Virus record (IMG/VR): IMGVR_UViG_3300015177_000008 | Span: 47,519-111,518 of that record | Origin: a virus | Taxonomy: Duplodnaviria > Heunggongvirae > Uroviricota > Caudoviricetes | Length of the DNA: 64,000 bases | Reading direction: 5' to 3' (one strand) | In this document: piece by piece, positions 9,904 through 57,916 of the stretch | Layout: each line of letters begins with the position of its first letter | How positions within the stretch are numbered: position 1 is the stretch's first letter | Translations under genes and position numbers: made by a program | Notes under the pieces: generated by a model | The model's database searches: none | Seen by the model: only the letters and a program-made list of their open reading frames with translations | Told to the model about the DNA's origin: nothing

Positions 9904-9958
9904 CCTGTTTCCGTATATTAATAATTAATATGTAGTTATTTATATATACAGAAGCAGG
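9904..9958. repeat. 55-bp element with 16-bp terminal inverted repeats (copy 1 of 2)
   Basis: cctgtttccgtatat ... tatatacagaagcagg around an AT-rich core; second copy at 57862..57916. Confidence 0.5.
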
Positions 9959-10488
9959 CTAATTACAGACGCCAGAACAAACTAAGCAGCCTTCTTTGAT
10001 GGTCTTTTTTTTTCTGACCACATTCGCAGGATCATACCCTCCCAGACTTTTCATGACGTCCAAAGGGATCTTGCTTATAGAGTGCCCAGCGTCCTGACAG
10101 AATCCTCGAAAAACAACGAGCATACTGCCACCGGGGTTGATGTTTACTTCTACCTGACCCAGATTGACGTCAGGCTCGACAAACGCTACGCGGCCACCAG
10201 ACAGAATAATCGTCTCATTCGCACACTCTGTTGCACGCTCATACCACTTTGTATCTAGGGATTGAGGAAGGCAATTGTACCTGGCTGTCCCCATTCAGAT
10301 TTCAAAGCATCACGCTCAACGCCTATGAAATTAGGCAGCTTTGCATTGTCCTTGTTGCAGGCAACGTCAACATCAAATGTCACTCCAAGATAACGTTGAA
10401 TGGCAGAAAACAGCCAGTCAGGTGTTCTCCAGAGGTCACGAAGAGAGTTGTCGCGCTTTCGCTGTTTGATTTTTTCGGCTGCAATCAT
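9959..10488 (-). pseudogene. Phage-type DNA N6-adenine methyltransferase (Dam family), disrupted
   Basis: Two ORFs in different frames: 10255..10488 ends ...GTIAFLNP-stop where NPPY/F is expected; 9959..10294 carries the downstream LPxxLDTKWY block. Apparent internal deletion plus frameshift. Confidence 0.5.
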
Positions 10489-10499
10489 CTTCTCTCTCG

Positions 10500-10519
10500 A
10501 TAGGTAAGTAAATACCTAT
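10500..10519. promoter_or_regulatory. Class-2 AT-rich palindrome
   Basis: ataggtaagtaaatacctat, just upstream of the Dam-like ORF start. Confidence 0.35.
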
Positions 10520-10551
10520 TTTTGCATTTGATTTTATGTCTGGCAATCAAA

Positions 10552-10598
10552 TAAAACGCGCCAGAAATGCAAACGAGAAGCTCTCTGGCGCGTTTTTG
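10552..10598. terminator. Bidirectional rho-independent terminator
   Basis: A-run, cgcgccaga ... tctggcgcg stem, then TTTTT; sits downstream of 10672..11481. Confidence 0.55.
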
Positions 10599-10671
10599 TG
10601 GTGCTGGGTATGTAATTGGCTTACCCAGCACTATAAAGCTCTCTATGGGCTTTATTTTCAGTAGGGGAACG

Positions 10672-11481
10672 TCATCCAATAGTGTACTCCGCGACAAACT
10701 TCTTAACGATCGGTGATTCTTCGTTCAATGTTAGATTTCCACCGTCTCTAACGGCAATTCCTGTCGCTGGAAATACAGCCATCATTTGCCCAGCCTGAGT
10801 TGACGCAGTGTTAAGCGGATACGGTTTTTCTGGATTGCTCATTAAAGCAATCTTAATACTATTACTTGTAGCCTTCTTTTCTGTGAGAAGGTGTCTCATG
10901 GAAATTACCGTGTAAACACTAATATCTGGACCTCCGCTAAACCAATTAAGAAGGTTTAATATCTTATCCTTTGCTTTGACAGGCGCGTTCTCATAAGCAT
11001 CTAAAAAAATATCTTTATCTAAACCCGCTTTATTGAAAAACGCATCATCTTTATCACTTAGAGTAAAACGAGGACCTCTTGCAGTACGCGCTTTTTTATT
11101 TGTGTTGCTATCATTTGACTGTTGAACTTTTAATTCATCATTAATCTCAACACACCCTTCAACCTCGATGATCCCCAACTGTTCTGGTTCGTTTTCGGCA
11201 GCTTCACCACTTTCAGCGTTAATTACGTTTATAGGCTCATGCGCTAACTCCAACTCATTTAAAGCTGAGCTGAAATCACCTGCTTTTTCTTCATTGAACA
11301 GTTCTTCGGCAACATCATCAGAACTCATGGCTACGCCAGCATCGAGGCCTAGAAGCAGATCGTCAATATCATCAGTATTTTCGACCTGTGCAGCTTTTTT
11401 TACCGGTTCATCAAGTGATTGCAACATAGCTGTCAGTTCGTCCAGATCATCATTTGTCATTACATTTTCAACCGAACTCAT
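10672..11481 (-). CDS. Hypothetical acidic protein
   Basis: 269 aa ORF rich in Asp/Glu. Confidence 0.5.
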   Translation of the reverse strand: MSSVENVMTNDDLDELTAMLQSLDEPVKKAAQVENTDDIDDLLLGLDAGVAMSSDDVAEELFNEEKAGDFSSALNELELAHEPINVINAESGEAAENEPEQLGIIEVEGCVEINDELKVQQSNDSNTNKKARTARGPRFTLSDKDDAFFNKAGLDKDIFLDAYENAPVKAKDKILNLLNWFSGGPDISVYTVISMRHLLTEKKATSNSIKIALMSNPEKPYPLNTASTQAGQMMAVFPATGIAVRDGGNLTLNEESPIVKKFVAEYTIG

Positions 11482-11639
11482 GTAAGTCTCCTTCTGTTTG
11501 GTTACATTTGCGTTTCGATGGCTACATTTTGACTAAACCTATCAGGCGGAAAAGTATTAAATACAGGCAGGAAATGATTGAAAGGCGACTGTTCTTTAAA
11601 AGAAAGCCTACTTTAAACTTTTTAAAGTAGGCTTTTGTT

Positions 11640-12188
11640 TTACACAATTTCAGAGGGTAATTTAAAAAATCCGTACTTATTACGTGCCTTAAAGAAGCAT
11701 TGCATCATTAAGTTTGTGTCATATAAGGCACTATGTGCTTTGGCATGATCGTATATAAAGCCAAGAGAGAAGGCCAACTCTTCAAGGCGGGGACGTTTAC
11801 CGTCTTCTGTGGCCCACAGGGAAAATAGAGTGTCAATCAATGGGATGTCTGGAAGCGAAAAACCGTAACTTTTCAGCTCATGCCTAATAAACGGAATATC
11901 GAACGCTTCGCCGTTGTGGGCTATCCAAATATCGGAAGAAGAGAGATACGAAGCGACAGATGAAGCGTGATCGGCTAGTAACGGCTCGGCGGCTAAATCT
12001 TCAAGACTGATGCCGTGTACCGCTTGCGCTTTCGGATCGATACTGCGACGCGGGTTGAACCGCATTACAAAACTATCAACCATTGTCTGTGTCTCAATTT
12101 CGTACTTCACCATTGCGATTTCAATGATTTTATGGCCTGAGAGGAAATCAAGACCTGTTGATTCGATGTCCACCCCTGTAGCAATCAC
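11640..12188 (-). CDS. DnaQ-like 3'-5' exonuclease (DEDDh)
   Basis: Exo motifs VDIESTGL, HNGEAFDIPF, HSALYDTNL. Confidence 0.7.
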   Translation of the reverse strand: MIATGVDIESTGLDFLSGHKIIEIAMVKYEIETQTMVDSFVMRFNPRRSIDPKAQAVHGISLEDLAAEPLLADHASSVASYLSSSDIWIAHNGEAFDIPFIRHELKSYGFSLPDIPLIDTLFSLWATEDGKRPRLEELAFSLGFIYDHAKAHSALYDTNLMMQCFFKARNKYGFFKLPSEIV

Positions 12189-12979
12189 TTTTTATCTCCT
12201 TTTACTGGTCGTTTGGACGGTGTGAAGATGGCAGCTTCAACATCCCACCCCCTCAAAATTCGCTGCGAGATAATGGTCGCAGTCAAGCCAACCTCTCTAG
12301 CCCATTCGGTAATTCGCTGAGTTCTGCCGCGACACTCGATCAGACGCTTACTATCTCGGTTGGCATACGTGTCGACGCTGGCGTTAAGCGCGCGATCTAA
12401 TGGCCACCCTTTCTTGATTCGATAGTGAAGAGTTGATGTCTGAATCCCGGCTCTTTTAGCCCATTGTGAGAGAGTCAGCTTTTCCCCCTTATGCTCCAAA
12501 ATTAAGTTTGAACGCGTGTTATTGGCCTGTTCTTCAAAAGTCGCCCATCTGCAATTTTCAGGTTCGTAGTCACCATTCACATCTTTGCGATCAAGAGACA
12601 TCCCCTCTGGTCGCTCTCCCATGTCAGCATAAAAGTTTTCAAATATTTGCCACCGCTCGCAGACTTTGATACCTCGGCCGCCATACCACTTATAGGCGTG
12701 ATGGGTTGGTTTTTCACATCGTTCCCGCATACCCAGCCATATACGATAAATTGGCGTTTTACTCATACCATGAGGCTTTACGCTACGGCGATGTGCGTTG
12801 TAGACACAGCCACACGATATTGTCGCCCCGTGATTTAGCTTCCCGTAACTAACCAGACAGGTGTTGCCGCAATCGCAGATGCAATCCCAAAGTCGCCCTT
12901 GTTTGTTTGAAATACCGGAATATTTAAGTGCAACCAACTTTCCAAAACGTTTACCTGTTATATCTACCGGTTGTCCCAT
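12185..12979 (-). CDS. HNH homing endonuclease
   Basis: Cys-rich N-terminus, HNH-type motif (VNGDYEPENCRWAT), two C-terminal helix-turn-helix-like repeats (TLSQWAKRAGIQTSTLHYRIKKGW / ITEWAREVGLTATIISQRILRGW). Confidence 0.65.
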   Translation of the reverse strand: MGQPVDITGKRFGKLVALKYSGISNKQGRLWDCICDCGNTCLVSYGKLNHGATISCGCVYNAHRRSVKPHGMSKTPIYRIWLGMRERCEKPTHHAYKWYGGRGIKVCERWQIFENFYADMGERPEGMSLDRKDVNGDYEPENCRWATFEEQANNTRSNLILEHKGEKLTLSQWAKRAGIQTSTLHYRIKKGWPLDRALNASVDTYANRDSKRLIECRGRTQRITEWAREVGLTATIISQRILRGWDVEAAIFTPSKRPVKGDKK

Positions 12980-12988
12980 TACTACTCC

Positions 12989-13408
12989 TTACAACTTCTT
13001 AGCGCCCTTGAGTAGTGCACTACGTACAAATTGAGCCGCTTTTTTCAAAGTTTCTTCACTGGTTTCACAGACAATCGGATCTTTCCACTTACCTGACGCA
13101 GTATTGAGAATATTGATTTGGTTGCTATCCAGACAAACAGAGATATAAAGCACCGTGCCACCAGCCAGCATCAAATGCATAGGAAACAGAGGCTTTTTAC
13201 TGTCTTCACTGAACTGAGACATGGCGATGTTAATGGCTTCACCCACTTGTGTACCAACAAGCCCCTGCGCAGTTTCGAATATGGCACGAATAGCCAGACG
13301 AGCCTCTCGATCGCTCATAAGCGACCGGGAATGTTCGTCCGCTACACGAATCAAAGCCTCTGTTGTTTTCCGATCCAGTTCATCTTCAAGCAACATTTCA
13401 CTAAACAT
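12989..13408 (-). CDS. Hypothetical protein
   Basis: 139 aa ORF. Confidence 0.45.
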   Translation of the reverse strand: MFSEMLLEDELDRKTTEALIRVADEHSRSLMSDREARLAIRAIFETAQGLVGTQVGEAINIAMSQFSEDSKKPLFPMHLMLAGGTVLYISVCLDSNQINILNTASGKWKDPIVCETSEETLKKAAQFVRSALLKGAKKL

Positions 13409-13469
13409 TTTTTATCCTTAACCCATTTTGAGAGTTTTATTGTCGCAATGTCGAAGAGGCGAACAATTT

Positions 13470-14114
13470 CTAATGAACGGTCACTCGGCCACAGAACCGG
13501 TTTTCTATCTTTTCTACAGCGTTATCTAGCATTCTCATCACTGATCTGGCTCTTGCTTCAACCGTGCGATATCGGTTGGAAACGACGAAGGTTTGCAGAT
13601 CCCCCCTTTGCGGATGCAGGTGAATTTTTGTCAGTTCCCCGCACATCAACGCATCAATACGAGCGACATACAGACGGTCTAATGATGCTCGTTGTGATCG
13701 CAAGTAATCTCGCTCTGAGAGAGCGACTCCCGGGCGTAGGCCAGCAATGGCGTTAAAGTTTGAAATAGCAGTTTTGTGGCAAAACTTTTCGATATCGAGG
13801 GCTAACTCAATACATCGATCTTCATTGGTATGGCCGACCAAATCCAACGTGTAGGCCATAACATCAGCAGGTGTGCGATCGATAACAAAGCCTTCAACAC
13901 CACGCGTAAGTAGCTCTATATGCTTTGCTATTTCCATTTGAATCTGAAGCCGCTCATATAGAGACATAGACTCACCTACTCGAACACCGAGTCGGCTCAT
14001 CAAACTTCCGACACCAGCATCCACGTAAGGGATTCCGTAATGTTTGTCGATATATTTTGCCAGGGTTGTTTTCCCACTGCCCTGAGCACCAGTGATCCCA
14101 ATCCGGTAATCCAT
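13470..14114 (-). CDS. P-loop NTPase, possible nucleotide kinase
   Basis: Walker A GITGAQGSGKTT near the N-terminus; position next to folA/thyA fits a nucleotide-metabolism role. Confidence 0.45.
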   Translation of the reverse strand: MDYRIGITGAQGSGKTTLAKYIDKHYGIPYVDAGVGSLMSRLGVRVGESMSLYERLQIQMEIAKHIELLTRGVEGFVIDRTPADVMAYTLDLVGHTNEDRCIELALDIEKFCHKTAISNFNAIAGLRPGVALSERDYLRSQRASLDRLYVARIDALMCGELTKIHLHPQRGDLQTFVVSNRYRTVEARARSVMRMLDNAVEKIENRFCGRVTVH

Positions 14115-15000: not shown

Positions 15001-15001
15001 A

Positions 15002-18365: not shown

Positions 18366-18395
18366 GTGTTTTTCCTTTTGCTTTTTGATGTGTTT

Positions 18396-18407
18396 AAACA
18401 AGTTGTT
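18396..18407. promoter_or_regulatory. Class-1 palindrome (putative operator)
   Basis: aaacaagttgtt about 30 nt upstream of the nrdB start, followed by a second short palindrome ttgtttaaacaa. Confidence 0.45.
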
Positions 18408-18469
18408 ATCTTATTTGTTTAAACAAGGCTTACAAATCAAAGAGAAGGTGGGATACACCCCACCATATG

Positions 18470-26496: not shown

Positions 26497-26605
26497 TCAT
26501 GTATGCTGTCAGCGGTAATTGATAGTCTGTCAGCGGTTCACCGTATGCTGCCAACTGTTTTTGGTATTCTGTCAGCGGCAAATCAAGTATGCTGTCAGCG
26601 GTTGA
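26497..26605. repeat. Iterons, upstream set (about 5 copies of TATGCTGTCAGCGGT and variants)
   Basis: Direct repeats tatgctgtcagcggt, gtctgtcagcggt, tattctgtcagcggc with irregular spacing. Confidence 0.7.
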
Positions 26606-26622
26606 ATGACAAAGGTGTCCAC

Positions 26623-27717
26623 ATGTCCACAAAAAATAAAAAAGGTAAAAATAACAAAGAAGTAGAAGATAATCTCGACAACTTTGAAGAAGGTTCCCTT
26701 GAATTGTACACAGGGGAACTTGTCCCTAATAGCAACAATACAGTCCAACCAATTGCGTTGATGCGGCTGGGATTGTTCGTGCCCACGCTCAAGGGGACAA
26801 AATACAGCAAGCGTAACAAGCCAAATGAGATCGATGCTTCAAAGGAGCTTGTTCAGCTCGAAGTAGCCCGTTCTGAAGGCTATTCCGATATCAAGATAAC
26901 CGGTCCTCGTCTCGACATGGATCATGATTTCAAAACGTGGGTGGGCGTTGTGCGTTCGCTGGCAGAATACGGCGAACCTAACGGTCGTGTCGAGTTAAGC
27001 ATCACGAAATTTGCGAAGTTTTGTGGCTATCCATCGTCACAGATCCGCAAAACACTCCGCGACCGGCTTACAAACAGTCTTTTGAAGATCATGCGTACAA
27101 CTCTGTCTTTCCAGAGAACATATGAAGAAAAGAACGTCGACGGCTCTAACAAGATCTCGCTTCTGATGGTGCACCTCATCAATAGCGTGGACTACAACGA
27201 GCAGAAAGATACGGTGGTGTTCTATGCAGAACCGAAGCTGGCCGAACTATATCGCTTTGACCATAAGGTTCTTTTGCAGTTAAAGGTTATCAATAAGCTA
27301 CCACGCAAAGAAACAGCACAGGCTCTGTACACCTTCATCGAAAGTCTTCCAACCAAGCCTGCGCCGGTGTCGCTTGCTCGATTGCGTGCGCGACTCAATT
27401 TGAGTAGCAGGAATGTCAGCTCGCAGAATCAGACTATACGCAACGGCTTAAAAGCTCTCCAAGATTTGGGCTATCTCGAATACAGCGAGATTAAGCGAGG
27501 GCGGTCGATCTATATCCAGATTCACAGCCGTAATCCAAAACTTAAAGTCGCACCGCCAAAACCTGAAGACATCGAACCCAAAAAAACAGATGAGAAAGCC
27601 GGGGAAATTGATGCTAAACAGAACATTATCAACAAGATAACTGAGCTTTCGCAGAATTTGACGCCTGAAAATATCAAGATGATTGAGATCCTTTCCAATA
27701 GTCTCAAACTGCTTTGA
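26623..27717 (+). CDS. repA: Iteron-type plasmid replication initiator (RepFIB-like)
   Basis: ATG at 26623 after AAGGTG; motifs TVQPIALMRLGLFVPTLK, ITGPRLDMDHDFKTWVG, LYTFIESLP, SLARLRARLNL match RepFIB-type RepA as I recall it; flanked by iterons. Track ORF starts upstream inside the iterons. Confidence 0.8.
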   Translation: MSTKNKKGKNNKEVEDNLDNFEEGSLELYTGELVPNSNNTVQPIALMRLGLFVPTLKGTKYSKRNKPNEIDASKELVQLEVARSEGYSDIKITGPRLDMDHDFKTWVGVVRSLAEYGEPNGRVELSITKFAKFCGYPSSQIRKTLRDRLTNSLLKIMRTTLSFQRTYEEKNVDGSNKISLLMVHLINSVDYNEQKDTVVFYAEPKLAELYRFDHKVLLQLKVINKLPRKETAQALYTFIESLPTKPAPVSLARLRARLNLSSRNVSSQNQTIRNGLKALQDLGYLEYSEIKRGRSIYIQIHSRNPKLKVAPPKPEDIEPKKTDEKAGEIDAKQNIINKITELSQNLTPENIKMIEILSNSLKLL

Positions 27718-27718
27718 T

Positions 27719-28250
27719 ATGCTGTCAGCGGTGAAATGTATGCTATCAGCGGCTATTTTTCTGAAAAGTATGCTGTGAACGGTTAAAGATATGCTACCAG
27801 CGGTATAGTGAGATGAACGTATGCTGTGAGCGGTAAATCATCTATCACCACTCAATGCTCTGTCATACCTCCCCAGTGGTTACTAACCTCGAAGAGTGCA
27901 TTCCATATAGGTTTGCGCTCACTAACATTCTATTGCTATTGCGCTGATTGCTTGTAGTGAAAGGCATTTATTGCCTGCTGCTCCCTGATAGAACGTATGC
28001 TGTCAGCGGTGTTTTATTGAGGAATTTTTGTTTGGATATGCTATCAGCGGTAATTAATGGTATATGTCAGACCTTCGTATGCTGCCAGCGGTAATTTTGT
28101 TCTGGTTATACCCATACCGGTACACATTATTCATGCAATGTCTTAAGTATGCTGTCAGCGGTAAAAAATCGAGTAAAGTATGCTGTGAGCGGTGAGATAG
28201 ACTCTCGATATGCTATCAGCGGTAGTTGATTGTGTATGCTGTCAGCGGTG
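27719..28250. repeat. Iterons, downstream set (at least 11 copies)
   Basis: tatgctgtcagcggt and variants (tatgctatcagcgg, tatgctgtgagcggt, tatgctgccagcggt) spaced about 20-35 bp apart, with a 160-bp gap. Confidence 0.75.
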
Positions 28251-28296
28251 ACGACTATGAAATATGACTGCGGAACGTGCCGCAGTCAGTTTGCAT

Positions 28297-29816: not shown

Positions 29817-29832
29817 GTTTTCTTAACCCTTT

Positions 29833-29846
29833 AAACAAGTTGTTTT
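29833..29846. promoter_or_regulatory. Class-1 palindrome (putative operator)
   Basis: aaacaagttgtttt between the terminator and the 29391..29816 start. Confidence 0.45.
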
Positions 29847-29864
29847 CTTAATAGGATAATTGCG

Positions 29865-37328: not shown

Positions 37329-37657
37329 TGATGCCCGCCAATTGGCGGGCATCTGTTCTCTGTAAAGGTGTCTGGCATCGTCTGGTTCGTTAACGTTTAC
37401 TAAACCAATGGTGACAAAAATTAGTTATCTTTGAAAAATAAAGGTTGCATGAAAAGAAGGGGTATGCGTTAATAGCATCGTTGGTTTGCAAGACAGACCT
37501 TATGTAAGCAGTTTTAGTAAAGCAGTCTCAGTTCAGTGTTATCTTCTGATTTCCCTTCTTCGTGAGTCTCCTCCTTAAGTGCCTAAGTAAGTCCCAATCT
37601 ATACAGATCAAATTCTCGCCGCACTATGTGGCTCACAAAATTAAGAAGGTAATATCT

Positions 37658-37873
37658 ATGTCTAATAAAATGACTGGTTTAGTAAAATGGTTTAACTCTG
37701 ATAAAGGCTTTGGCTTTATTTCTCCTGCTGATGGCAGTAAAGATGTTTTTGTACATTTTTCGGCAATTCAGAGTAATAATTTCCGCACTTTGGAAGAAGG
37801 CCAGCAGGTCGAATTCTCTATCGAGAATGGGGCTAAAGGCCCAGCAGCAGCAAATGTCGTTGCTCTAAGCTGA
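37658..37873 (+). CDS. Cold-shock protein, CspA family
   Basis: [38 protein letters not shown]... (RNP1/RNP2 motifs); long 5' leader of about 160 nt; track ORF starts upstream. Confidence 0.85.
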
Positions 37874-38151
37874 TTCAACGCTGATGATCCTCATTTCTAC
37901 AATAACGAAGACGGTGTAAGCCTGAGTGGATAGATTTGTAGGATTGTACAAGTTGAATAAATTAGCATGGTAAGGCCATGCTAATTAAATCGACACAACG
38001 GCCAGTTTATTCCATAAAAGTGAATTGCCCATTGTGGCGAAATGCGGGGTTGCCGCATGAATAGTCAAAGGCAGAAGCTAACTGCCGGCATGGCAAAACA
38101 AAGTGCGTAAGAGGAGTGACTTCCTCAACAAGCGCCATAATTCTTTATAAA

Positions 38152-41100: not shown

Positions 41101-41695
41101 TGGCGACTTTCATCGCCCGGACGTTAATCTGGTCGTAGAATGGGGTAGGGTGCGGATAAACCACACTATAGAAGTTGTCTTTTCCACCCGCTGTAATCAG
41201 TGTGCTTATGATTTTTGCAAAATCGTTGCGTTGGAACACGCTACCGATGTCGGAAGTAAGCAGGATGATGTTGCCTTTGGCATATGTAGAAACCAACTGT
41301 TCGAGCGAGAGACGCGGTACAAAGTAGAACTGTTCTCGTGTGTTGGCCGCCGTCATTAGTTCGCAGATGTCGCGATATCCTTGCTCATTTTTAATTAGAG
41401 CGGTAAACGAGTAGTTACGTCCCCGCTCTAATGATTCCATACATCTCATAGATTCTTTAGCAAGTTTAGCCCGGTGCTCGTATGTGGGATCATCAACAAT
41501 GTTTAGTTTCACACCACAAATAACCGCCATGTCGTCACCAGCGGCACGTTGTAGTGGAATAACGCTCGCAATATTCATGCTATCTGCTGAAATTACAGCG
41601 GTGTAGCCAGCTTCTCTGGCAATCTTCACCGCGTTTTCTGCTTTTAGAGCCGACTCCCCAAGTGAGAAGTCAGTTCGAACCATCAGTGCCTTCAT
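38177..41695 (-). CDS. dnaE: DNA polymerase III alpha subunit (DnaE family)
   Basis: 1172 aa; N-terminal PHP-like region and polymerase-core motif GRGSSAGSLVAWCIGIT; start context GGTAAAAACACATG. Confidence 0.85.
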   Translation of the reverse strand: MKALMVRTDFSLGESALKAENAVKIAREAGYTAVISADSMNIASVIPLQRAAGDDMAVICGVKLNIVDDPTYEHRAKLAKESMRCMESLERGRNYSFTALIKNEQGYRDICELMTAANTREQFYFVPRLSLEQLVSTYAKGNIILLTSDIGSVFQRNDFAKIISTLITAGGKDNFYSVVYPHPTPFYDQINVRAMKVASALKIEPVAFYPAYYESIDDADIKDIAHMVTNNIKIDQPHRLRIPHQRDNAVNGRRHLLEALKAFSVRMDVPVTAAMASTTQDTIIDACTWRWHELPPALPKMADDEPATLMKLAVAGLRKRLTTKEFGYTPPASENRVYVERLKYEMDTLTRLGFCGYFLMVRDLMNHSRETGIPVGPGRGSSAGSLVAWCIGITNVDPIRHGLLFERFINPERLDLPDADLDFSQARRHEVIEYLNERYGEDYVAGIPNFTYLGAASALRDTARIYGVESADMAVSKELKNAEDDSLPLEELREQLASLDKYATKYPDAFNAACKLQSLMRGFGRHAAGMIVAGVPLTERTPVERRGDARCIAFDKRYCEAMGLIKLDVLGLATLDLLDSAKRYIKENTGEDINLDAISLEDRKVLDGFAAGYTQGVFQLESGPMRKLLKDLGGGIEPMSFKTVVATTALFRPGPIQSGMLDDYVSVAKGFMTPESLHPVLDKLTAETNGVILYQEQTMNATRLLAGFTMAEADAVRSAIGKKNMEKMKSMGEKFIVQAQAGWIDVELEDGTTQRIHRAEHFKCEDGTLKTVEEALEHGAKLPINAVRVTASHPGLSEMKAKEIWTAFEKNGAYQFNKSHSVAYSLISYQSMWLKTHYPAEFFAAALTILGEDKHQGLVKDALTYGIRVLPPDVNVSSNRIEIRTLEDGSQALYAPFSAVKGCSENGCQAIMRAREKVGGKFESVAQFDEAVEKRACNSRVRESLHKVGAFASIEPGSLPATDPERLRDQAELMGNLIIDAVKASRPFEMNPKRSAEINVLMTRMAAEMGLGEELIRPTIGIKPKIMIILDNANGNDARTGYFMENGYDDFKAKLLTVGDLRMGDLYVTGVCKKVKDKEKDYTKDEIGQFTDFMREEINLVRPTYILTCGSRSTALFNNKSKPSDLIGRKEYFPELDATVFYGFNPNILYFRPEEGERLEAILADIAETINK

Positions 41696-47363: not shown

Positions 47364-47573
47364 ATGACAATCACCGAGTTACGCCGATGCACTGTATAAG
47401 TAAACAGTATATTAGGCATAGATTCTTATAGGATCAAGAGTAAAAGTAACTCATTTTCAGCAATGATTCCATACATAGTAGGTATGGAATCATTTTGACG
47501 TTGTTTTTTGAATTTTAAGGGAAATGGGAGTGAGTTTGGTGGGAATAAAAACGGCTCCTGTGAGCCGTTAAAA

Positions 47574-49368: not shown

Positions 49369-49446
49369 CACAGCGTTGAGCGGTCTGGTTTATGTTAGCG
49401 GAGTCTTAATCGAGTTGATTAAAAGGCCAAACCGCTCAACGCTGTG
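49369..49446. repeat. Long hairpin A (16-bp perfect stem, 46-nt loop), 2 nt after tRNA-Ser
   Basis: cacagcgttgagcggt ... accgctcaacgctgtg. Confidence 0.55.
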
Positions 49447-49448
49447 TC

Positions 49449-49535
49449 TGGCGGAGAGTAATGGAATCGAACCATCATCGCTTGCGCAATGGGACGGTTT
49501 TCAAGACCGCTTGAGCACCATGCTCCCTACTCTCC
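49449..49535 (-). tRNA. tRNA-Ser (anticodon UGA), type II
   Basis: Manual fold: acceptor GGAGAGT/ACTCTCC, anticodon loop CTTGAAA, long variable arm, T-loop TTCGATT, discriminator G, encoded CCA. Confidence 0.7.
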
Positions 49536-49679
49536 GGCCGTTGTGGTGGCCGGTACTGAATCTCCGGCATACGGTGCAGCCAATTAGGACTACGGACGAT
49601 CACCGCTCGCGAAAGGGAAGATTTGCGGCCGCATTTCCCTAACATCCAAGAAAGCTATCGCATCAGTCTGCGAATCCAC

Positions 49680-49759
49680 CACAACGGTAAGATCACTACC
49701 TTTCGACCAGTCATTGTGCACATGAACGACGATTAACCGTAATGATCTTATCGTTGTGT
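49680..49759. repeat. Long hairpin B (16-bp stem, 1 mismatch)
   Basis: cacaacggtaagatca ... tgatcttatcgttgtg. Confidence 0.5.
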
Positions 49760-49809
49760 TGTGAAGCCAGATGCTTATCTTCTGGTTGCTTCAAAGAGCT
49801 GCACTTCCT

Positions 49810-49897
49810 CACAACGGTAAGAGCACTGGTCTGACTCTATCGATTTACGGGCTTGTGGGTCAGTATCGCCGATTCGCCCAATGCTCTTACCTGTTGT
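49810..49897. repeat. Long hairpin C (16-bp stem, 1-nt bulge), 2 nt after tRNA-Thr
   Basis: cacaacggtaagagca ... tgctcttacctgttgtg. Confidence 0.5.
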
Positions 49898-49899
49898 GT

Positions 49900-49975
49900 T
49901 GGTGCCGGTTAACGGGATCGAACCGCTGACATCCTGCTTACAAGGCAGGCGCTCTACCAACTGAGCTAAACCGGC
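49900..49975 (-). tRNA. tRNA-Thr (anticodon UGU)
   Basis: Manual fold: acceptor GCCGGTT/AACCGGC, D-arm GCTC..GAGC, anticodon stem CCTGC/GCAGG with loop CTTGTAA, T-loop TTCGATC, encoded CCA. Confidence 0.8.
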
Positions 49976-49977
49976 AT

Positions 49978-50052
49978 TGGCGATGGTGGGTGGATTCGAA
50001 CCACCGACCAGTTGGTTAACAGCCAACTGCTCTACCGCTGAGCTACACCATC
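49978..50052 (-). tRNA. tRNA-Asn (anticodon GUU)
   Basis: Manual fold: acceptor GATGGTG/CACCATC, anticodon stem GTTGG/CCAAC with loop CTGTTAA, T-arm GGTGG TTCGAAT CCACC, encoded CCA. Confidence 0.8.
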
Positions 50053-50319
50053 AATTCAGCACTGACAGTATTTATTACTCAACAGTGCCAATCGCGGCGG
50101 TGTTAGTTTCTGCCAGGAAACGCACCGCTACTTGCACTTTTCGTTAGTGCCAGACGCTTTCGACTTCGCTCAATAGTAGAAGGCAAAATCTTTAAGTAGA
50201 TGATGTTTCTGAGGACAGCACCTACTTTGTAATTTATACAATGTGATGTATGGAATCATTTGTTGTGAAAACAGGCACCAATGGCAACAGTGGTTAAACC
50301 TACACAACAATCCTGTCTT

Positions 50320-50441
50320 CACAACGTTGAGGCCACTACTCCGATTGAATGTTTGCCCAACATGTTACATATCAACGCTCGCCGGTATCTCTGTGAATAG
50401 AACCTTAGAATTGATAAAAATGTAATGGCCTCAACGTTGTG
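50320..50441. repeat. Long hairpin D (15-bp perfect stem, 92-nt loop)
   Basis: cacaacgttgaggcc ... ggcctcaacgttgtg. Confidence 0.5.
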
Positions 50442-50800
50442 TGCTGGCTAACCATACCAGCCGGGCTACGTCGCCGCTTTTTAACCCAGTATAAACGACA
50501 TAATTGAACAAAATGACGTAACAGGATGGGCGGTCAGTGGCTAAGAATCCGGGAGTCATATGGAGTTGAAAATATACCAACCGCCCATTCTGTTACTTCA
50601 TCGGAGGGAACATTCATGTTCCCTCCTGCGTTCTGCAATCACACTCGCTCAGTGTGTCCCATTTCGGTAACGAGGCTGGAAACTGACCTCGCTGGTGTTT
50701 GGCTTATTAGGCTACTGCCAGATAGACTTCTTCGTTTGCACTTGTATTTAAGTTCAAACAGTCGCGTCTCAACGAAAACAAAGTCATCTTATACACAAAA

Positions 50801-51122: not shown

Positions 51123-51271
51123 TTTTTCACCTTTGTTTCATGAACTACCCGATACACACGCTTTCCGATGCACAGTGTTTTGGTTTTAAGTTCCTGCTTA
51201 ATTAAATCACGACAGATGCCGAAGCCGATAAGGAAGCCACCCATAAAAGCTAATGAGATGTATGGAATCAT
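51119..51271 (-). CDS. Small membrane protein (50 aa)
   Basis: MIPYISLAFMGGFLIGFGIC...; ATGA overlaps at both ends; GGAG before the ATG. Confidence 0.3.
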   Translation of the reverse strand: MIPYISLAFMGGFLIGFGICRDLIKQELKTKTLCIGKRVYRVVHETKVKK

Positions 51272-51483
51272 TTTAACGCTCCTGATTCTACTAATTGCTG
51301 TAGCAATACTTTCCCTTTATCAGTTAACTGGTAGTTGGCCGAACACCACGTTTCAGAAACGTTTGCAACCAACCCTAAACGCTCTAACTTAGCTCGCGTT
51401 TTAGGCTTCCAGTACTCAGGGAACTCCGGCCACTTACTGATTTCATGAAGCGTTTCCTTCTCCCGTTTACTTAATACGATCAT
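51268..51483 (-). CDS. Hypothetical protein (71 aa)
   Basis: ORF in overlap-coupled chain. Confidence 0.4.
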   Translation of the reverse strand: MIVLSKREKETLHEISKWPEFPEYWKPKTRAKLERLGLVANVSETWCSANYQLTDKGKVLLQQLVESGALK

Positions 51484-54282: not shown

Positions 54283-54323
54283 ACCAACTCCTAGCTAACA
54301 GATGAAAGTATTCTTACAGAAAG

Positions 54324-54343
54324 ATAAGTAGTCATCTACTTAT
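54324..54343. promoter_or_regulatory. Class-2 AT-rich palindrome
   Basis: ataagtagtcatctacttat (8-bp arms). Confidence 0.35.
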
Positions 54344-54357
54344 TTTATCGGCGTTTG

Positions 54358-55539
54358 TTACGATAGAGCCTTAATGCCTAAAACCTTGCTTTGCAACTCC
54401 AACTGTTTGGTATACGGTTTTGCCCGATAATAGGCTTTGATAATTTGTTCTGGCGTTGCATCGCCGGGGTCGAGTCCTTCCTCGCCCAAACACGCTACTT
54501 TGACATTAAGACCAATACTGGTCAGTCGCCTGGCTGCGGCCATAGTGTTTCGTATAGCTTGCTTTTCACTATCCCACATCATGATCACATTACGTAATCC
54601 ACGCGCCTTGAGCGTCAGGAACGCGCCTAACTGATCTTCTGCATCCTGAGTGGTGTTACCAGATAGATGCATCCCGAACGTTCCTATCGGCTCCACGTAA
54701 TGACGTAATGTTTCTTCATCAAAAATAGCTCGTTTAACCCCCATAACATCGAACGCCCCCTCACAGACAACTACAGTCTGTTTGCCGACCGCATTATGGC
54801 CGTTGTAGAGAAATTTACCTGAAGCTGGAAGCTGCATAGGAAAGAGGTAGCGGCGTTCTGCTGTACCGGTAATGTCTCGTCCCTGAAATGTCTTCATTAC
54901 CCCATCCAGATCGTAAACCGGTATCAGTATTCGCATATCGAATATCTGCCCTTTGACCTGGTCTGTGTACGGATCGACGTATGCGTGCTTGCCTTCGACG
55001 CAGTAACGCAGATCAAAGTATTTGGCCAGATCCGGGGAGATATGGCGCTCCACCAGATAATCAGGAAGACGACCGTCAATGGGGAGTTCGTAATGTCGAG
55101 GGAGAGCTACTGGCCCTTCGAGTTCAACCTTGCTGGCCAGCACGACCTCTTCCTTCTTCGGCGCCCATCCTTGTGAGATCAGCGCGTTCTGCACATATTC
55201 CTCGAACTGTCGTCGTGATTTACCGCTGTAGTGCTTGAGGAAGACCAGCTTATTGAACTGAATCTCTTCGGGATGATCACCAGCAAAGCATTTGCCGACG
55301 CCACTGGTCAGATTGAAATATACCTTCCAGTTGGAGCTGCCACATACCGGACACTCCTTGATATTCACTTCACGACCGCGAGCACTCACGCCTCCACGTC
55401 GATAAACGATACCTTCAGTGTCCAACCATTGTTCAAAATCTAATTCGGTAATTAGCTCTTTCAGCTCGCTCACGATAATTCCACTTTTAATAGGCAATAT
55501 TGTGACCAACCTAAATGTTGATATAATATAAAGGTTCAT
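54358..55539 (-). CDS. DnaG-like DNA primase
   Basis: ATG at 55539 in context GAAAAACACATG; zinc-binding CPVCGSS...C..GDH and TOPRIM VVVCEGAFDVMG. Track ORF extends upstream into a hairpin. Confidence 0.75.
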   Translation of the reverse strand: MNLYIISTFRLVTILPIKSGIIVSELKELITELDFEQWLDTEGIVYRRGGVSARGREVNIKECPVCGSSNWKVYFNLTSGVGKCFAGDHPEEIQFNKLVFLKHYSGKSRRQFEEYVQNALISQGWAPKKEEVVLASKVELEGPVALPRHYELPIDGRLPDYLVERHISPDLAKYFDLRYCVEGKHAYVDPYTDQVKGQIFDMRILIPVYDLDGVMKTFQGRDITGTAERRYLFPMQLPASGKFLYNGHNAVGKQTVVVCEGAFDVMGVKRAIFDEETLRHYVEPIGTFGMHLSGNTTQDAEDQLGAFLTLKARGLRNVIMMWDSEKQAIRNTMAAARRLTSIGLNVKVACLGEEGLDPGDATPEQIIKAYYRAKPYTKQLELQSKVLGIKALS

Positions 55540-55591
55540 GTGTTTTTCTTTTGTGGTTTGGCAAAAGAAAAGTTGTTTCACCAATGAATCA

Positions 55592-55622
55592 AGCGTGGAG
55601 GTGTTCTCCACGCTTATTTTTT
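55592..55622 (+). terminator. Terminator-like hairpin oriented for the plus strand
   Basis: agcgtggag gtgtt ctccacgct then TATTTTTT; lies between the helicase stop and the primase start. Confidence 0.35.
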
Positions 55623-56961
55623 AGGTAACGTCTAAGATTCGCTCAATGAAGCGCATTTGTTCGAGGTTTTGTTTAACGCGAATGCTGATCCCTCCCTGCT
55701 GGTTACGAGAACCAGCAAAGTAGAGACGAGCCTCTCCTTTCGCTTCTTCTTCTTCGGTTTTGTTGATCGTTATTACCAGGTCAGCAATACGTACTTTTTC
55801 GATGTTGTCGGCGGCGTGCATCATTGTGGCAACTTCTGACGCGCCACCTTCACGGTTTGTCTGCGATGCCGTGATCCCAGCAACGTTATGCTTGTCATAA
55901 AGAGCACGTAAATCGGTGTAGATACTACGAATGTTAGCGCGATCATCACGAAGGTCATAACTGGCACGCATCAAATCTGCGTAGTCGACAACAACCATAT
56001 CAGGCACCATGCCATTGGCTTTCATGCTGTTAAGCATACGGTCCAGATCTGCCGGTGACATACTTCCTGACGGACGCTCAACCACCCACAAACTACCAAT
56101 CCCCTTCGTGGCTCCCAACTCTGCCAACTTACGATGAACCTCATCGCGCCGTTCCACCAGCTTGGACATTTCCGTCTCCGACAATCTTGCATCAAAACGG
56201 TCGGATAAAATGGTGGTGTGAACCTCCAGCGAGAGATACAGAACATTGTAGCCAGCAAGCGTAGCGTTTATGGAAAACTCACCCATTGCGGTCGATTTAC
56301 CGGATTTAGCGAACCCCATGAAGAGCACCATTTCACGCTTCGCCCAGCCTTTTTGGTACAGCAACCTATCGAGCAGAGGGAGTCCAGTTGTAATGCTGTT
56401 TGGCACATACTCCTCTGAAGCCTCATATTCACGCGCTTTCAATCGCTCACTTGCGGAGGTGTAGTAGTCATAGATTCCGGTCGCTTCGTTCGATCCAATC
56501 TGCTGAACCTTGGCCATTATTGACATCGCCCCCTGAAAGTCGCCTTTCTCTTTCAGTTCAGCAGCCTTAATCAGAGCATCATCAAACGCTACGCTTTTTG
56601 CGAAGGTTGATACCTGGTCAATCATGTACGAGGTATCGGACAATTTTTCTGCAAGGATGCGCTTAAACGCAGCAACAACATCGGCGAATAGTTCCTCACG
56701 GATAGTCTTATCGCGTTTCGCACGCTTAAGCATATCCAGAATCGCAGATGAAGAGGGCGCGCTCTTGTACATACGGTAATAGCCCGAAACCATATTAACC
56801 AATATGGCATTGGCCGCATTGGCAAATTGACTAGGCACAACAAGATCTCCCGCACGAGTAAGAAACTCGTGATCACGACAAAAATAGGCCGTCAATCTGT
56901 TCTGAAAATCTTCATCAAACTCTTCGGACAGCCCGCGTCCTGTATGGCAAAGTTCGGTCAT
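55621..56961 (-). CDS. DnaB-family replicative helicase
   Basis: Walker A GFAKSGKST and RecA-like C-terminal domain; start context GGAAAGCACATG; class-1 palindrome upstream. Confidence 0.85.
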   Translation of the reverse strand: MTELCHTGRGLSEEFDEDFQNRLTAYFCRDHEFLTRAGDLVVPSQFANAANAILVNMVSGYYRMYKSAPSSSAILDMLKRAKRDKTIREELFADVVAAFKRILAEKLSDTSYMIDQVSTFAKSVAFDDALIKAAELKEKGDFQGAMSIMAKVQQIGSNEATGIYDYYTSASERLKAREYEASEEYVPNSITTGLPLLDRLLYQKGWAKREMVLFMGFAKSGKSTAMGEFSINATLAGYNVLYLSLEVHTTILSDRFDARLSETEMSKLVERRDEVHRKLAELGATKGIGSLWVVERPSGSMSPADLDRMLNSMKANGMVPDMVVVDYADLMRASYDLRDDRANIRSIYTDLRALYDKHNVAGITASQTNREGGASEVATMMHAADNIEKVRIADLVITINKTEEEEAKGEARLYFAGSRNQQGGISIRVKQNLEQMRFIERILDVT

Positions 56962-56980
56962 GTGCTTTCCTTTATTTTTT

Positions 56981-56994
56981 AAACAAATTGTTTT
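56981..56994. promoter_or_regulatory. Class-1 palindrome (putative operator)
   Basis: aaacaaattgtttt about 20 nt upstream of the helicase start. Confidence 0.45.
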
Positions 56995-57004
56995 CTAGTG
57001 TTAG

Positions 57005-57745
57005 TTAATTAGATAGGGAATCAATAAACCGCCGTGCTTCTTCCAGTTCTTCTGGAAAGTGGGCGGAAATAAGGCGCTCTGGAACGATTTCCATTAGCCA
57101 GGTAGCGGAGAAAATTGCGCGTATGCGCTTGCTGCGGGGGATGGCGCGTAAACGCTCCAGAATCCACTCAAAATAGCTTTCCTGAATCGGGTTGAACTGC
57201 ATGTCTCCCATATGCTTAAAGCTAACCAGAGAGTCATCCAGACGGGTTGTTGCGCGTCTGGCTAATTTCTCTTCAAATATCTCAATCAGTTCTGGCTGCC
57301 ACAAATGCTGTGGGCGAGGCAGCTTGTCCCACAAACGTCGTGCAGCTGCGGAAAGCACGGTGGAGATAAAGTAGTCGTATGAGCAGCAATAGCGATCCGC
57401 AAACTGGCGTGCTTTCCATAGCGACGTTTTATTGGCAGTCGACAACTCCTGATAAGGCAGGCGTTTTAACCCGGTGGTGAACGGAGCTGTTTCAAAGTGT
57501 TCGCGACCGTGCGTCAGCATGATATTTGAGTACTGACGTTTGTATGCCTCCGTAAAAAGGCAGGTGGCCATGAGAGGATGCATGTCGCGGTAATCAAACC
57601 ACTTCGTCTCGAAGAGTTCAGCCTCGTCTTTACAGCGCGACAAACCAATGTTTTCAGCGACCCACTTGTCCATAACAGCGGTATTCCACTCTGTCATGAA
57701 GTCGTACTGGTCGTTGTCGATGGTATCGAAAAAGATTTGGCTCAT
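57005..57745 (-). CDS. Hypothetical protein
   Basis: ATG at 57745; track ORF starts at an upstream GTG. Confidence 0.45.
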   Translation of the reverse strand: MSQIFFDTIDNDQYDFMTEWNTAVMDKWVAENIGLSRCKDEAELFETKWFDYRDMHPLMATCLFTEAYKRQYSNIMLTHGREHFETAPFTTGLKRLPYQELSTANKTSLWKARQFADRYCCSYDYFISTVLSAAARRLWDKLPRPQHLWQPELIEIFEEKLARRATTRLDDSLVSFKHMGDMQFNPIQESYFEWILERLRAIPRSKRIRAIFSATWLMEIVPERLISAHFPEELEEARRFIDSLSN

Positions 57746-57756
57746 GTGGCTCACCT

Positions 57757-57778
57757 GGTAGGTAGTTACTTACTTATC
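57757..57778. promoter_or_regulatory. Class-2 AT-rich palindrome
   Basis: ggtaggtagttacttacttatc. Confidence 0.3.
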
Positions 57779-57861
57779 ACAATGAGCGGATGATAGCGAC
57801 TGGTGGCAGTTTTTGGAAGTGGAAACGGAAGGGAGTTGTTCTGGTGGTGTCTTTTAAAAGA

Positions 57862-57916
57862 CCTGCTTCCGTATATATTTAATAAGTTACTTATTATTTA
57901 TATATACAGAAGCAGG
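57862..57916. repeat. 55-bp element with 16-bp terminal inverted repeats (copy 2 of 2)
   Basis: cctgcttccgtatata ... tatatacagaagcagg; core contains ataagttacttat. Confidence 0.5.

What the first reader, a model, noticed from the sequence alone, without database searches (positions are those of the whole stretch)
9904..57916. Two copies of a 55-bp element with 16-bp terminal inverted repeats
Copies at 9904..9958 and 57862..57916 share near-identical termini (CCTGYTTCCGTATATA / TATATACAGAAGCAGG) around different AT-rich cores. On the minus strand each would form a long hairpin followed by a short T-run, so they may be terminators, but the shared termini 48 kb apart suggest a small mobile or recombinogenic element.
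Basis: seen in the sequence. Interest (0 to 1): 0.45.

Follow-up and report, generated by a model that had tools for sequence, protein, structure and literature searches.

The report
Conserved terminator hairpins in a phage-plasmid
The two 55-bp inverted-repeat elements are real, but they are two of three fixed stem-loops that mark operon ends in every SSU5-like phage-plasmid. They most likely stop transcription and are not a mobile element.

Summary
The window is 64 kb of an E. coli SSU5/pHCM2-like phage-plasmid.

The hairpin is not a two-copy oddity. Every relative examined carries three paralogous copies at the same three intergenic sites:
- Site A, after the Dam methylase gene (window copy 1).
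- Site B, before the helicase-primase operon (window copy 2).
- Site C, before terS, which lies outside the window.

There are no target-site duplications and no copies in bacterial chromosomes. There are no extra sites.

On the transcribed (minus) strand both window copies fold into roughly 25-bp hairpins (-25 and -31 kcal/mol). Each sits just after the upstream coding region, is followed by a short U-run, and precedes about 100 nt of promoter-like DNA.

Published RNA-seq of the 98%-identical phage Cyrano shows expression falling about 9-fold or more across site B.

Distant relatives keep a hairpin at the same sites with different arm sequences. The changes are compensatory, and one relative has an ordinary terminator in its place.

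Best reading: intrinsic terminators or operon-boundary RNA hairpins.

Three features are unexplained:
- The arm sequence is shared by the sites of one genome but differs between lineages.
- Site C lacks a U-run.
- The edge of site B is a breakpoint for gene-cassette replacement in many of the 254 matching plasmids.

Interest is modest.

The parts
9904..9958 (-). Hairpin copy 1 (site A). Minus-strand RNA reads CCUGCUUCUGUAUAUA...UAUACGGAAACAGG.
   Evidence: Present at the orthologous place in Cyrano, PhiR41_1 and CMS-2020a, SSU5 and Kluyvera.
9959..9961 (-). Stop codon (TAG) of the Dam-type methylase reading frame, directly abutting the hairpin base.
9896..9901 (-). GUUUUG U-run, 2 nt after the hairpin as extended by its outer A-U and G-C pairs.
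9972..9978 (-). Outer 5' motif GTTCTGG of site A.
9878..9886 (-). Outer 3' motif CTCCAGACC of site A. It pairs with the 5' motif in the extended fold (-37.2 kcal/mol, z -5.3).
57862..57916 (-). Hairpin copy 2 (site B). Minus-strand RNA reads CCUGCUUCUGUAUAUA...UAUAUACGGAAGCAGG. It has 18 + 7 pairs with a 3x1 internal loop.
   Evidence: The orthologous Cyrano site lies between CYRAN_30 and CYRAN_31, where RNA-seq drops to floor level.
57856..57861 (-). UCUUUU U-run immediately after the hairpin.
57938..57945 (-). Outer 5' motif CTTCTGGG of site B.
57838..57844 (-). Outer 3' motif CCAGAAC of site B. The extended fold gives -42.5 kcal/mol, z -8.0.
57790..57818 (-). Sigma-70-like promoter (TTCCAA, 17 nt spacer, TATCAT) for the downstream 246-aa gene and helicase-primase operon. 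This is inferred by eye and was not reported by the scan tool.
   Evidence: Read. The block is conserved in diverged type-B loci.
57927..58849 (.). Variable cassette slot between the par operon and the hairpin. In this window it holds a GIY-YIG endonuclease gene (58028-58795, + strand) with its own terminator-like hairpin at about 58813-58841.

Best explanation
Both copies are RNA stem-loops made from the minus (coding) strand. They end transcription units of an SSU5-like phage-plasmid. In effect they are unusually long, AU-rich-topped Rho-independent terminators or insulators.

Where they sit:
- Copy 1 ends the nucleotide-metabolism/Dam methylase block.
- Copy 2 ends the partition-plus-cargo operon. 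It shields the lytic replication operon (246-aa protein, DnaB-like helicase, primase) from read-through while the element is maintained as a plasmid.

Proposed mechanism. RNA polymerase transcribes the 5' arm, the AT-rich core and the 3' arm. The roughly 25-bp hairpin forms, with a GC-containing base CCUGCUUC/GAAGCAGG. The following U-run (GUUUUG or UCUUUU) then lets the transcript release. A promoter-like region 45-70 nt downstream restarts transcription under its own control.

The two copies are paralogues of a third one, in front of terS and outside the window. All three are inherited vertically at fixed sites in the whole phage-plasmid family.

Shown here:
- The structure, position and strand.
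- Conservation at fixed sites.
- Compensatory change in distant lineages.
- A large drop in RNA abundance across site B in a 98%-identical relative.

Inferred:
- That the drop is termination rather than processing.
- That site A behaves like site B.
- That the same holds in this particular genome, where the DNA upstream of copy 2 is a different cassette.
For: 1. Identity of the window. It is 97-99% identical to Escherichia phages CMS-2020a, Cyrano and PhiR41_1, which are SSU5-like.

2. Position.
- Copy 1 starts at the base after the methylase stop codon.
- In Cyrano the orthologue of copy 2 starts 25 nt after the stop of CYRAN_30.
- Each copy is followed by 100-120 nt of non-coding DNA before the next start codon.

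3. Fold and tail on the coding strand.
- The hairpins fold at -25.1 and -30.8 kcal/mol, with z -3.8 and -7.9.
- Among 37 oriented family members, sites A and B carry 4-6 T in the first 8 nt after the stem in nearly all cases.

4. Experiment from the literature (PMC9928086, S1 table), from bacteria carrying Cyrano.
- The genes upstream of site B have LB averages of 49.8, 89.1 and 54.6.
- The gene just downstream (CYRAN_31) has 6.2.
- In log2 units, CYRAN_30 gives 5.7-10.4 against 2.3-4.2 for CYRAN_31 across all ten samples.
- Values near the +5 offset (log2 2.32) are floor, so the true drop is at least this large.

5. Functional replacement. In Morganella the same site holds a canonical terminator, ATGGGAGCA-loop-TGCTCCCAT followed by TTTCTTTC. 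In a 107-kb relative the 3' arm of the large hairpin doubles as the first half of such a terminator.

6. Selection on pairing. Compare E. coli-type arms CCTGCTTCTGTAT/ATACGGAAGCAGG with Xenorhabdus arms CCTTGCTCCCAT/ATGGGAGCAAGG. G-C becomes A-T, T-A becomes C-G, and a T/A pair is inserted on both arms. The pair just outside the arms switches between A-U and G-C.

7. Not mobile.
- There are three fixed sites per genome.
- No target-site duplication exceeds the control.
Against: - Site C, the third paralogue, has no U-run on either strand in any lineage of the E. coli group. Site A lacks one in Xenorhabdus and in the 107-kb relative. The conserved part is therefore the hairpin, not the terminator tail.
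- A plain terminator has no need to keep its arm sequence. Yet the 16-nt arms are nearly identical at three sites and across genera whose flanks have diverged. Within that group there is no covariation beyond shuffles.
- The stem of about 25 bp, mostly A-U, is atypical for E. coli intrinsic terminators. The U-runs are short (4 U).
- The simple terminator scan did not list either copy.
- The RNA-seq evidence is per-gene abundance in a relative. It is not a mapped 3' end, it is compatible with processing, and it covers site B only. Sites A and C are at background on both sides.
- In this window the DNA immediately upstream of copy 2 is the antisense of a GIY-YIG gene. What the hairpin terminates here is read-through from the par operon, and this is assumed.
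Confidence: 0.6

Rival explanations
1. The hairpins are an RNA processing or regulatory signal rather than a terminator. One version is a host RNase III cleavage site, as in the intergenic sites of phage T7 or lambda sib. Another is a hairpin bound by a phage-plasmid-encoded protein that controls read-through, similar to nut or RAT sites. Under this view the U-runs at sites A and B are accessory.
For: - About 25 bp of nearly continuous duplex with one internal loop is enough for RNase III.
- The hairpin, not the U-run, is the conserved feature.
- Arm sequences are shared by the sites of one genome but differ between lineages. Lambda-type phages show this same pattern for boxB.
- In the 107-kb relative the large hairpin and a small terminator hairpin are mutually exclusive structures.
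- The RNA-seq drop would equally follow from cleavage plus decay.
Against: - No cleavage data exist.
- No candidate binding protein was identified.
- Mismatch and wobble positions show no consistent strand bias across lineages.
- The core has flipped in Cyrano, and the arms have flipped in PhiR41_1 and in the Klebsiella/SSU5 site A, with no sign of loss. This argues against recognition of an asymmetric sequence.
Confidence: 0.15
2. The element acts on DNA. It would be a cruciform-forming or easily melted palindrome, flanked by TCTGG/CCAGA motifs and used at three places in the genome. Possible roles are a recombination or replication start site, a binding site for a partition or packaging protein, or a programmed break site.
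For: - It is a near-perfect palindrome with an AT-rich centre, which grows to 80-146 bp in distant relatives.
- Conserved outer inverted motifs are present.
- The three sites are spaced 31, 47 and 30 kb apart around the circle.
- The genome encodes UvsX/UvsY/gp32/UvsW-like, SbcCD-like and RuvC-like proteins.
- The edge of site B is a recombination breakpoint in many plasmids.
- The SSU5 and Cyrano database records are both linearised inside the site-C hairpin, about 110 bp upstream of terS.
Against: - Nothing shows binding or cleavage.
- The outer motifs are absent in Xenorhabdus-type relatives.
- Site A has decayed to a 3'-arm remnant in a Klebsiella aerogenes relative, so that site is dispensable.
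- Three copies of a packaging or recombinase site in direct orientation would fragment the genome.
- The RNA-seq drop and the canonical terminator found in Morganella are explained directly by the RNA model.
- The break in the database records may be an assembly artefact copied from SSU5 to Cyrano.
Confidence: 0.15
3. It is a small non-autonomous mobile element (MITE-like) with 16-bp terminal inverted repeats.
For: - It has terminal inverted repeats and several copies in one genome.
- The same arm variant, CCTGCGTCTG...CGGAAGCAGG, appears at site C of some genomes and inverted at site A of others. This hints at exchange between sites.
Against: - All matches in one genome per species (185,579 species) lie on 13 stretches. 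The named ones are contigs of SSU5/pMT1-like size from Kluyvera, Buttiauxella and Yersinia pestis. The rest are a few MAG contigs, which I did not examine individually. I saw no chromosomal dispersal.
- Copies occupy the same three orthologous sites from Escherichia to Xenorhabdus.
- Flanking direct repeats are no longer than in shuffled pairings.
- The only 'missing' case is a partial deletion, not a clean empty site.
- No transposase is associated with it.
Confidence: 0.03

Closest known systems
Rho-independent (intrinsic) transcription terminators of enterobacteria and their phages
   Same: A stem-loop on the coding strand just after a stop codon, followed by a U-run and then by the next promoter. 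Transcript abundance drops across it.
   Different: The stem is about 25 bp and mostly A-U, against the usual 5-14 bp GC-rich stem. The U-run is only 4 U. The arm sequence is conserved at three sites and across genera. One of the three paralogues has no U-run.
RNase III processing sites of phage T7 and the lambda sib retroregulator (from general knowledge)
   Same: Several similar intergenic hairpins in one phage genome, long enough for RNase III, that shape the ends and stability of polycistronic RNAs.
   Different: No cleavage evidence here. T7 sites have a characteristic large internal loop and no U-run.
nut boxB hairpins of lambdoid phages (from general knowledge)
   Same: The copies within one genome share a hairpin sequence that differs between related phages. 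Here this is seen for the arms in the E. coli-type, Raoultella, Xenorhabdus and Providencia-like lineages.
   Different: boxB is 15 nt and lies just downstream of early promoters. No N-like protein is known in SSU5-like phages.
Intergenic palindromic repeat families such as REP/BIME, ERIC and Neisseria Correia elements (from general knowledge)
   Same: Short intergenic inverted-repeat units that can terminate transcription, be cut by RNase III, or stabilise upstream mRNA.
   Different: Those families have tens to hundreds of copies at variable sites. Some have target-site duplications and dedicated transposases. Here there are three fixed sites, confined to one phage-plasmid family.
Dispersed centromere palindromes of the linear phage-plasmid N15 (from general knowledge)
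   Same: A handful of palindromic sites scattered around a phage-plasmid genome, next to lytic-cycle modules.
   Different: N15 sites are short SopB-binding palindromes. Nothing here links the hairpin to the ParA/ParB-like proteins.

Membership tests
Intrinsic (Rho-independent) terminator | Stable RNA stem-loop on the transcribed strand. | tested here: met
   -25.1 kcal/mol (z -3.8) and -30.8 kcal/mol (z -7.9) on the minus strand, which carries the flanking genes.
Intrinsic (Rho-independent) terminator | U-rich tract immediately 3' of the stem. | tested here: met
   GUUUUG at 9896-9901 and UCUUUU at 57856-57861. The tracts are short. The third paralogue (site C, outside the window) has none.
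Intrinsic (Rho-independent) terminator | Lies at the end of a transcription unit, after a stop codon and before a new promoter. | tested here: met
   Copy 1 abuts the stop codon at 9959-9961. In Cyrano the copy 2 orthologue lies 25 nt after the CYRAN_30 stop. Promoter-like TTCCAA-17-TATCAT lies downstream.
Intrinsic (Rho-independent) terminator | Transcription actually stops there. | tested here: inconclusive
   Per-gene RNA-seq in the relative Cyrano drops from LB averages of 50-89 to 6, and to floor level in all ten samples, across site B (PMC9928086 S1 table). There is no 3'-end mapping, no data for site A, and none for this genome.
Intrinsic (Rho-independent) terminator | Typical geometry: GC-rich stem of 5-14 bp with a 3-8 nt loop. 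| tested here: not met
   The stem is 25 bp. Only the basal 8-10 bp contain G-C. The consensus scan did not list the copies.
MITE / small mobile element | Target-site duplication flanking the terminal inverted repeats. | tested here: not met
   36 of 40 unique instances have no flanking direct repeat of 3 nt or more. The distribution is no better than shuffled left/right pairings.
MITE / small mobile element | Copies at non-orthologous, variable sites, with presence/absence polymorphism. | tested here: not met
   Three orthologous sites in Cyrano, SSU5, Kluyvera and others. No chromosomal dispersal was seen. One relative shows partial decay, not an empty site.
RNase III substrate | About 20 bp or more of mostly continuous double-stranded RNA. 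| tested here: met
   Copy 2 has 18 + 7 pairs interrupted by a 3x1 internal loop.
RNase III substrate | Cleavage by RNase III. | not testable with these tools
   Needs RNA end mapping in rnc+ and rnc- hosts.
Known RNA families (Rfam 15) | Match at or above a family's gathering score. | tested here: not met
   Only sub-threshold matches to generic long-hairpin miRNA precursor models, at 18-23 bits against gathering scores of 62-101.
Integron attC site | R''/R' core sites RYYYAAC ... GTTRRRY bracketing the folded site. | tested here: not met
   By eye, the outer motifs are (G)KTCTGG / CCAGAM, not GTTRRRY. No integron integrase is annotated.

The most novel reading that the evidence does not exclude
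The three hairpins could be one cis-acting signal that co-evolves with a factor encoded by the phage-plasmid. This would explain why the arm sequence is the same at all sites of a genome but differs between lineages, and why the paralogue before terS needs no U-run.

Two concrete versions:
- A nut-like, hairpin-binding regulator that decides whether transcription crosses from plasmid-maintenance genes into the lytic replication and late operons.
- Programmed palindromes that are extruded and cut by the element's own SbcCD/Mre11-Rad50-like nuclease. This would create the ends that start T4-style recombination-dependent replication, with mosaic junctions at the hairpin as a by-product.
Probability: 0.12. 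Interest if true: 0.65.

Novelty: new member of a known kind. Interest (0 to 1): 0.3.

Why it matters
SSU5/pHCM2-like phage-plasmids are common in clinical Enterobacteriaceae and carry resistance and toxin genes. How they keep lytic genes silent while plasmid genes are expressed is essentially undescribed.

These hairpins give three precise, conserved landmarks between plasmid-state and lytic modules. One of them adjoins the slot where accessory cassettes are swapped. That makes them useful for annotation, for engineering insertion sites, and for asking whether read-through control contributes to the lysogeny-lysis switch.

If the shared arm sequence reflects a dedicated factor, it would point to an unrecognised regulatory layer. 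If not, this is an ordinary set of terminators kept alike by descent and gene conversion.

Tried and rejected
- **Third copy in the window.** The partial match at 1990-2022 (family D9) and the palindrome at 1966-2019 lack the arms and fold no better than shuffles (z about 0). The covariance model scores them at E 2.7.
- **T4-type late promoter.** TATAAATA sits in the 5' half of the core on the coding strand in most copies. It is rare elsewhere: 6 in the window and 8 in Cyrano, none before structural genes. It is on the wrong strand in Cyrano site B. Rejected.
- **attC-like site.** The core motifs are absent. Rejected.
- **Iteron idea.** ACGGAAG/CTTCCGT occurs both in the arm and in the site-B flank, but shows no clustering genome-wide.
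- **Covariation inside the E. coli-type group.** The stems are 90.5% paired but almost invariant, so the statistics are no better than shuffles. Compensatory evidence comes only from hand comparison with distant lineages.
- **Strand bias of wobble versus mismatch pairs as an RNA-versus-DNA test.** The result was mixed and not decisive.
- **Literature.** No paper in the searchable library contains the arm sequences or describes the hairpins. One preprint could not be opened.
- **cos site idea for site C.** The other two copies would then cut the genome, and the terminase and portal Pfam hits, read against my own knowledge of these families, suggest headful packaging. Considered unlikely.

Full report
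**What the window is.** Segments around both copies are 97-99% identical to Escherichia phages CMS-2020a, Cyrano and PhiR41_1, and about 80% identical to Salmonella phage SSU5 and Klebsiella relatives. The window is therefore 64 kb of a roughly 108-kb SSU5/pHCM2-like phage-plasmid. Nearly all genes near the two copies are on the minus strand.

**Checking the observation.** The two 55-bp units are exactly where stated. The four arms are the only matches to the 16-mer at up to 3 mismatches, against 0.51 expected. The arms are not perfect complements. Pair 9 is C/A on the plus strand, which is U.G in minus-strand RNA. Copy 1 also has a private T at 9908, where three close relatives have C. On the minus strand the copies fold at -25.1 and -30.8 kcal/mol, with z -3.8 and -7.9. 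They are followed by CUGUUUUG and UCUUUU.

**The element is one of three, and it is fixed.** I scanned IMG/VR for one arm and recovered about 55 complete hairpins. When oriented by their flanks, these fall into three flank types.
- Type A follows the stop codon of a Dam-type methylase. This is window copy 1.
- Type B precedes a conserved 246-aa gene and the DnaB-like helicase/primase operon. This is window copy 2.
- Type C lies between the last gene of the ParB-like/ABC block and terS.

The complete Cyrano genome has exactly these three copies, at 78084, 31159 and across the record ends. So does SSU5.

A two-arm pattern search of one genome per species gave only 13 stretches. The named ones are contigs of SSU5/pMT1-like size: Kluyvera, with three copies on a 108.7-kb contig, Buttiauxella, and Yersinia pestis. 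The rest are a few MAG contigs, which I did not examine individually. I saw no chromosomal dispersal. A covariance model finds only the two copies in the window and the three in Cyrano. Flanking direct repeats are no better than in shuffled pairings. The mobile-element reading is therefore not supported.

**Anatomy in the direction of transcription.**
- Most copies read 5' CCTGCTTCTGTATATA - core - TATATACGGAAGCAGG 3', with U.G at pair 9.
- The base pair just outside the arms alternates between A-U and G-C.
- Outer inverted motifs ((G)KTCTGG and CCAGAM) lie 13-25 nt from the hairpin. They extend the predicted structure to about 110 nt, at -37 and -42.5 kcal/mol.
- Sites A and B are followed by 4-6 T in the next 8 nt. 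Site C is not, on either strand.
- Copy 1 abuts the methylase stop codon (9959-9961).
- Downstream of copy 2 there is a conserved pyrimidine-rich block with a sigma-70-like TTCCAA-17-TATCAT. This is my reading and not a tool result. It is followed by a GATAAGTAAGTAACTACCTACC palindrome, a ribosome-binding site and the ATG at 57745.

**Experimental evidence from the literature.** Cyrano is the pLF82 phage-plasmid. The S1 table of PMC9928086 gives per-gene RNA-seq values for it.
- The par/cargo genes upstream of site B (CYRAN_28, 29, 30) average 49.8, 89.1 and 54.6 in LB.
- CYRAN_31, just past the hairpin, averages 6.2.
- In log2 units, CYRAN_30 gives 5.7-10.4 against 2.3-4.2 for CYRAN_31 in all ten samples. 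The low values are at or near the floor.
- A strong barrier to transcript accumulation therefore lies in the 193-bp gap that contains the hairpin and its U-run.
- Sites A and C are uninformative, because both sides are near background.

**Distant relatives.** I used the flanking proteins to reach genomes with only 45-65% protein identity. The same sites carry long AT-cored hairpins with different basal arms.

| Lineage | Site | 5' arm | 3' arm | Note |
|---|---|---|---|---|
| Raoultella | B | CCTGCTCCCCAT | ATGGGAAGCAGG | Site C is rearranged but contains CCTGCTCCTCAT |
| Xenorhabdus | A | GCCTTGCTCCCAT | ATGGGAGCAAGGC | -33.2 kcal/mol, z -7.8 |
| Xenorhabdus | C | (differs) | same 3' arm as site A | |
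| 107-kb contig | A | GCCGCGCTCTCAT | ATGGGAACGCGGC | |
| 107-kb contig | B | GCCGCACTCCTAT | ATGGGAGCACGGC | |

Relative to the E. coli type these arms carry compensatory changes. G-C becomes A-T, T-A becomes C-G, and a pair is inserted on both arms. Pairing is therefore selected.

At site B of the 107-kb contig the 3' arm also forms the first half of a small canonical terminator (GGGAGCA...TGCTCC TTTCTTTTT). In Morganella only such a canonical terminator is seen at this site. A Klebsiella aerogenes relative retains only a 3'-arm remnant at site A.

Within the E. coli-type group the stems are 90.5% paired but almost invariant. Covariation statistics there are no better than shuffles, and I do not count them as support.

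**What remains odd.**
- The arm sequence is shared among the sites of one genome yet differs between lineages. This needs either gene conversion among the copies or a sequence-reading factor.
- The hairpin, not the U-run, is the conserved part. Site C never has a U-run.
- Close relatives differ by flips. PhiR41_1 has pair 9 reversed with the core unchanged. Cyrano has the site-B core inverted. Klebsiella/SSU5 site A has the arm asymmetry reversed.
- The upstream edge of copy 2 is a recombination junction. The window, Cyrano and CP054387 carry three unrelated sequences between the par operon stop (58848-58850) and a point 3-10 nt from the hairpin. Of 254 plasmids matching window 57500-58300, 132 cover at least 80% of the query. 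In all 17 partial matches that start at query position 1 among the 40 sampled rows, homology ends at query position 417-427, and 417 is the last base of the hairpin. In this window the slot holds a GIY-YIG endonuclease gene.
- The SSU5 and Cyrano database records are both opened inside the site-C hairpin.

**Verdict.** Copies 1 and 2 are best read as the terminator or insulator hairpins that close two transcription units of the phage-plasmid (confidence about 0.6). RNA processing or factor-controlled read-through, and a DNA-level role, remain live alternatives at about 0.15 each. A mobile element is very unlikely. No Rfam family matches, and no paper in the searchable library describes the element. 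It is a new member of a known kind and of modest interest. The one feature worth a bench test is whether arm sequence matters.

Noticed in passing
window 10259-10269 (gene remnants 9959-10294 and 10255-10488, minus strand): Relative to Cyrano, the Dam-type methylase gene just upstream of copy 1 has lost about 77-88 bp. The two BLAST pieces overlap by 11 nt at the junction. The gene now reads as two ORF fragments, both with Pfam Dam hits, so it is probably a pseudogene in this genome.
   Followed up: partly
window 58028-58795 (+), slot 57927-58849: A GIY-YIG (LEM-3-like) endonuclease gene, with its own terminator-like hairpin at about 58813-58841, sits on the opposite strand between the par operon and copy 2. 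It is present in 132 of 254 matching plasmids and replaced by unrelated DNA in others. It also occurs at 99% identity without the hairpin in a 140-kb plasmid. It looks like a free-standing homing-endonuclease cassette.
   Followed up: partly
window 26497-28256: About 15 copies of an iteron-like repeat, GTATGCTGTCAGCGGT, lie in two clusters. By synteny with Cyrano CYRAN_63 they are presumably the plasmid origin flanking repA.
   Followed up: no
window 6748-6772, 18393-18417, 29830-29854, 56978-57002, 59908-59932: A conserved palindromic motif, AAACAAGTTGTTTTCT, lies 15-35 nt upstream of several start codons, including those of the helicase gene and parA. Two copies also lie between the site-C hairpin and terS in relatives. 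It is probably the site of a global regulator.
   Followed up: no
window 3402, 8368, 10498, 16114, 20831, 25484, 30968, 35753, 47860, 50771, 53442, 54317, 57757, 62506 (about 22 nt each): A family of GATAAGTAAGTA-n-TACTTATC palindromes. The one I checked (57757-57778) lies just upstream of the ribosome-binding site of the 246-aa gene. The tip of copy 2 (AATAAGTAACTTATT) resembles them. They could be operator-like sites or 5'-UTR hairpins.
   Followed up: no
window 9000-9560 (minus strand), especially 9251-9385: About 550 nt downstream of copy 1 are non-coding, with repeated GTTCTGGGG-type motifs. The small ORF there corresponds to CYRAN_81, which is about 12-fold above background in plasmid-state RNA-seq (PMC9928086). 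It may be an expressed small RNA or a micro-protein.
   Followed up: partly
window 37480-37898 (+): Full-length Rfam match to the cspA thermoregulator (185.7 bits). This indicates a cold-shock protein gene with its regulatory 5' UTR carried as cargo on the strand opposite to most genes.
   Followed up: no
window 49369-50601: Four long hairpins (arms 20-23 nt, 87-95% complementary, several beginning CACAACG/CACAGCG) surround the two tRNA genes at 49903-50052.
   Followed up: no
window 41430-41449 / 51253-51272, also 47462-47494 and 50240-50261: Another dispersed repeat, AATGATTCCATACATCTCAT, includes a 20-nt perfect inverted pair 9.8 kb apart and a local palindrome.
   Followed up: no
NC_018843 (SSU5) and OV696614 (Cyrano) record ends; loci L143/L144 and L127/L125: Both linear database records start and end inside the loop of the third (site C) hairpin, about 110 bp upstream of terS. 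This is either an assembly break at the palindrome that was copied by convention, or a hint of a real DNA end.
   Followed up: partly
L150:2288-2470 (Raoultella, upstream of terS): Site C is rearranged 'inside out'. A 3'-arm-like ATATCGGAAGCAGG comes first, then 43 nt, then a 5'-arm-like CCTGCTCCTCAT. This looks like two degenerate tandem copies.
   Followed up: no
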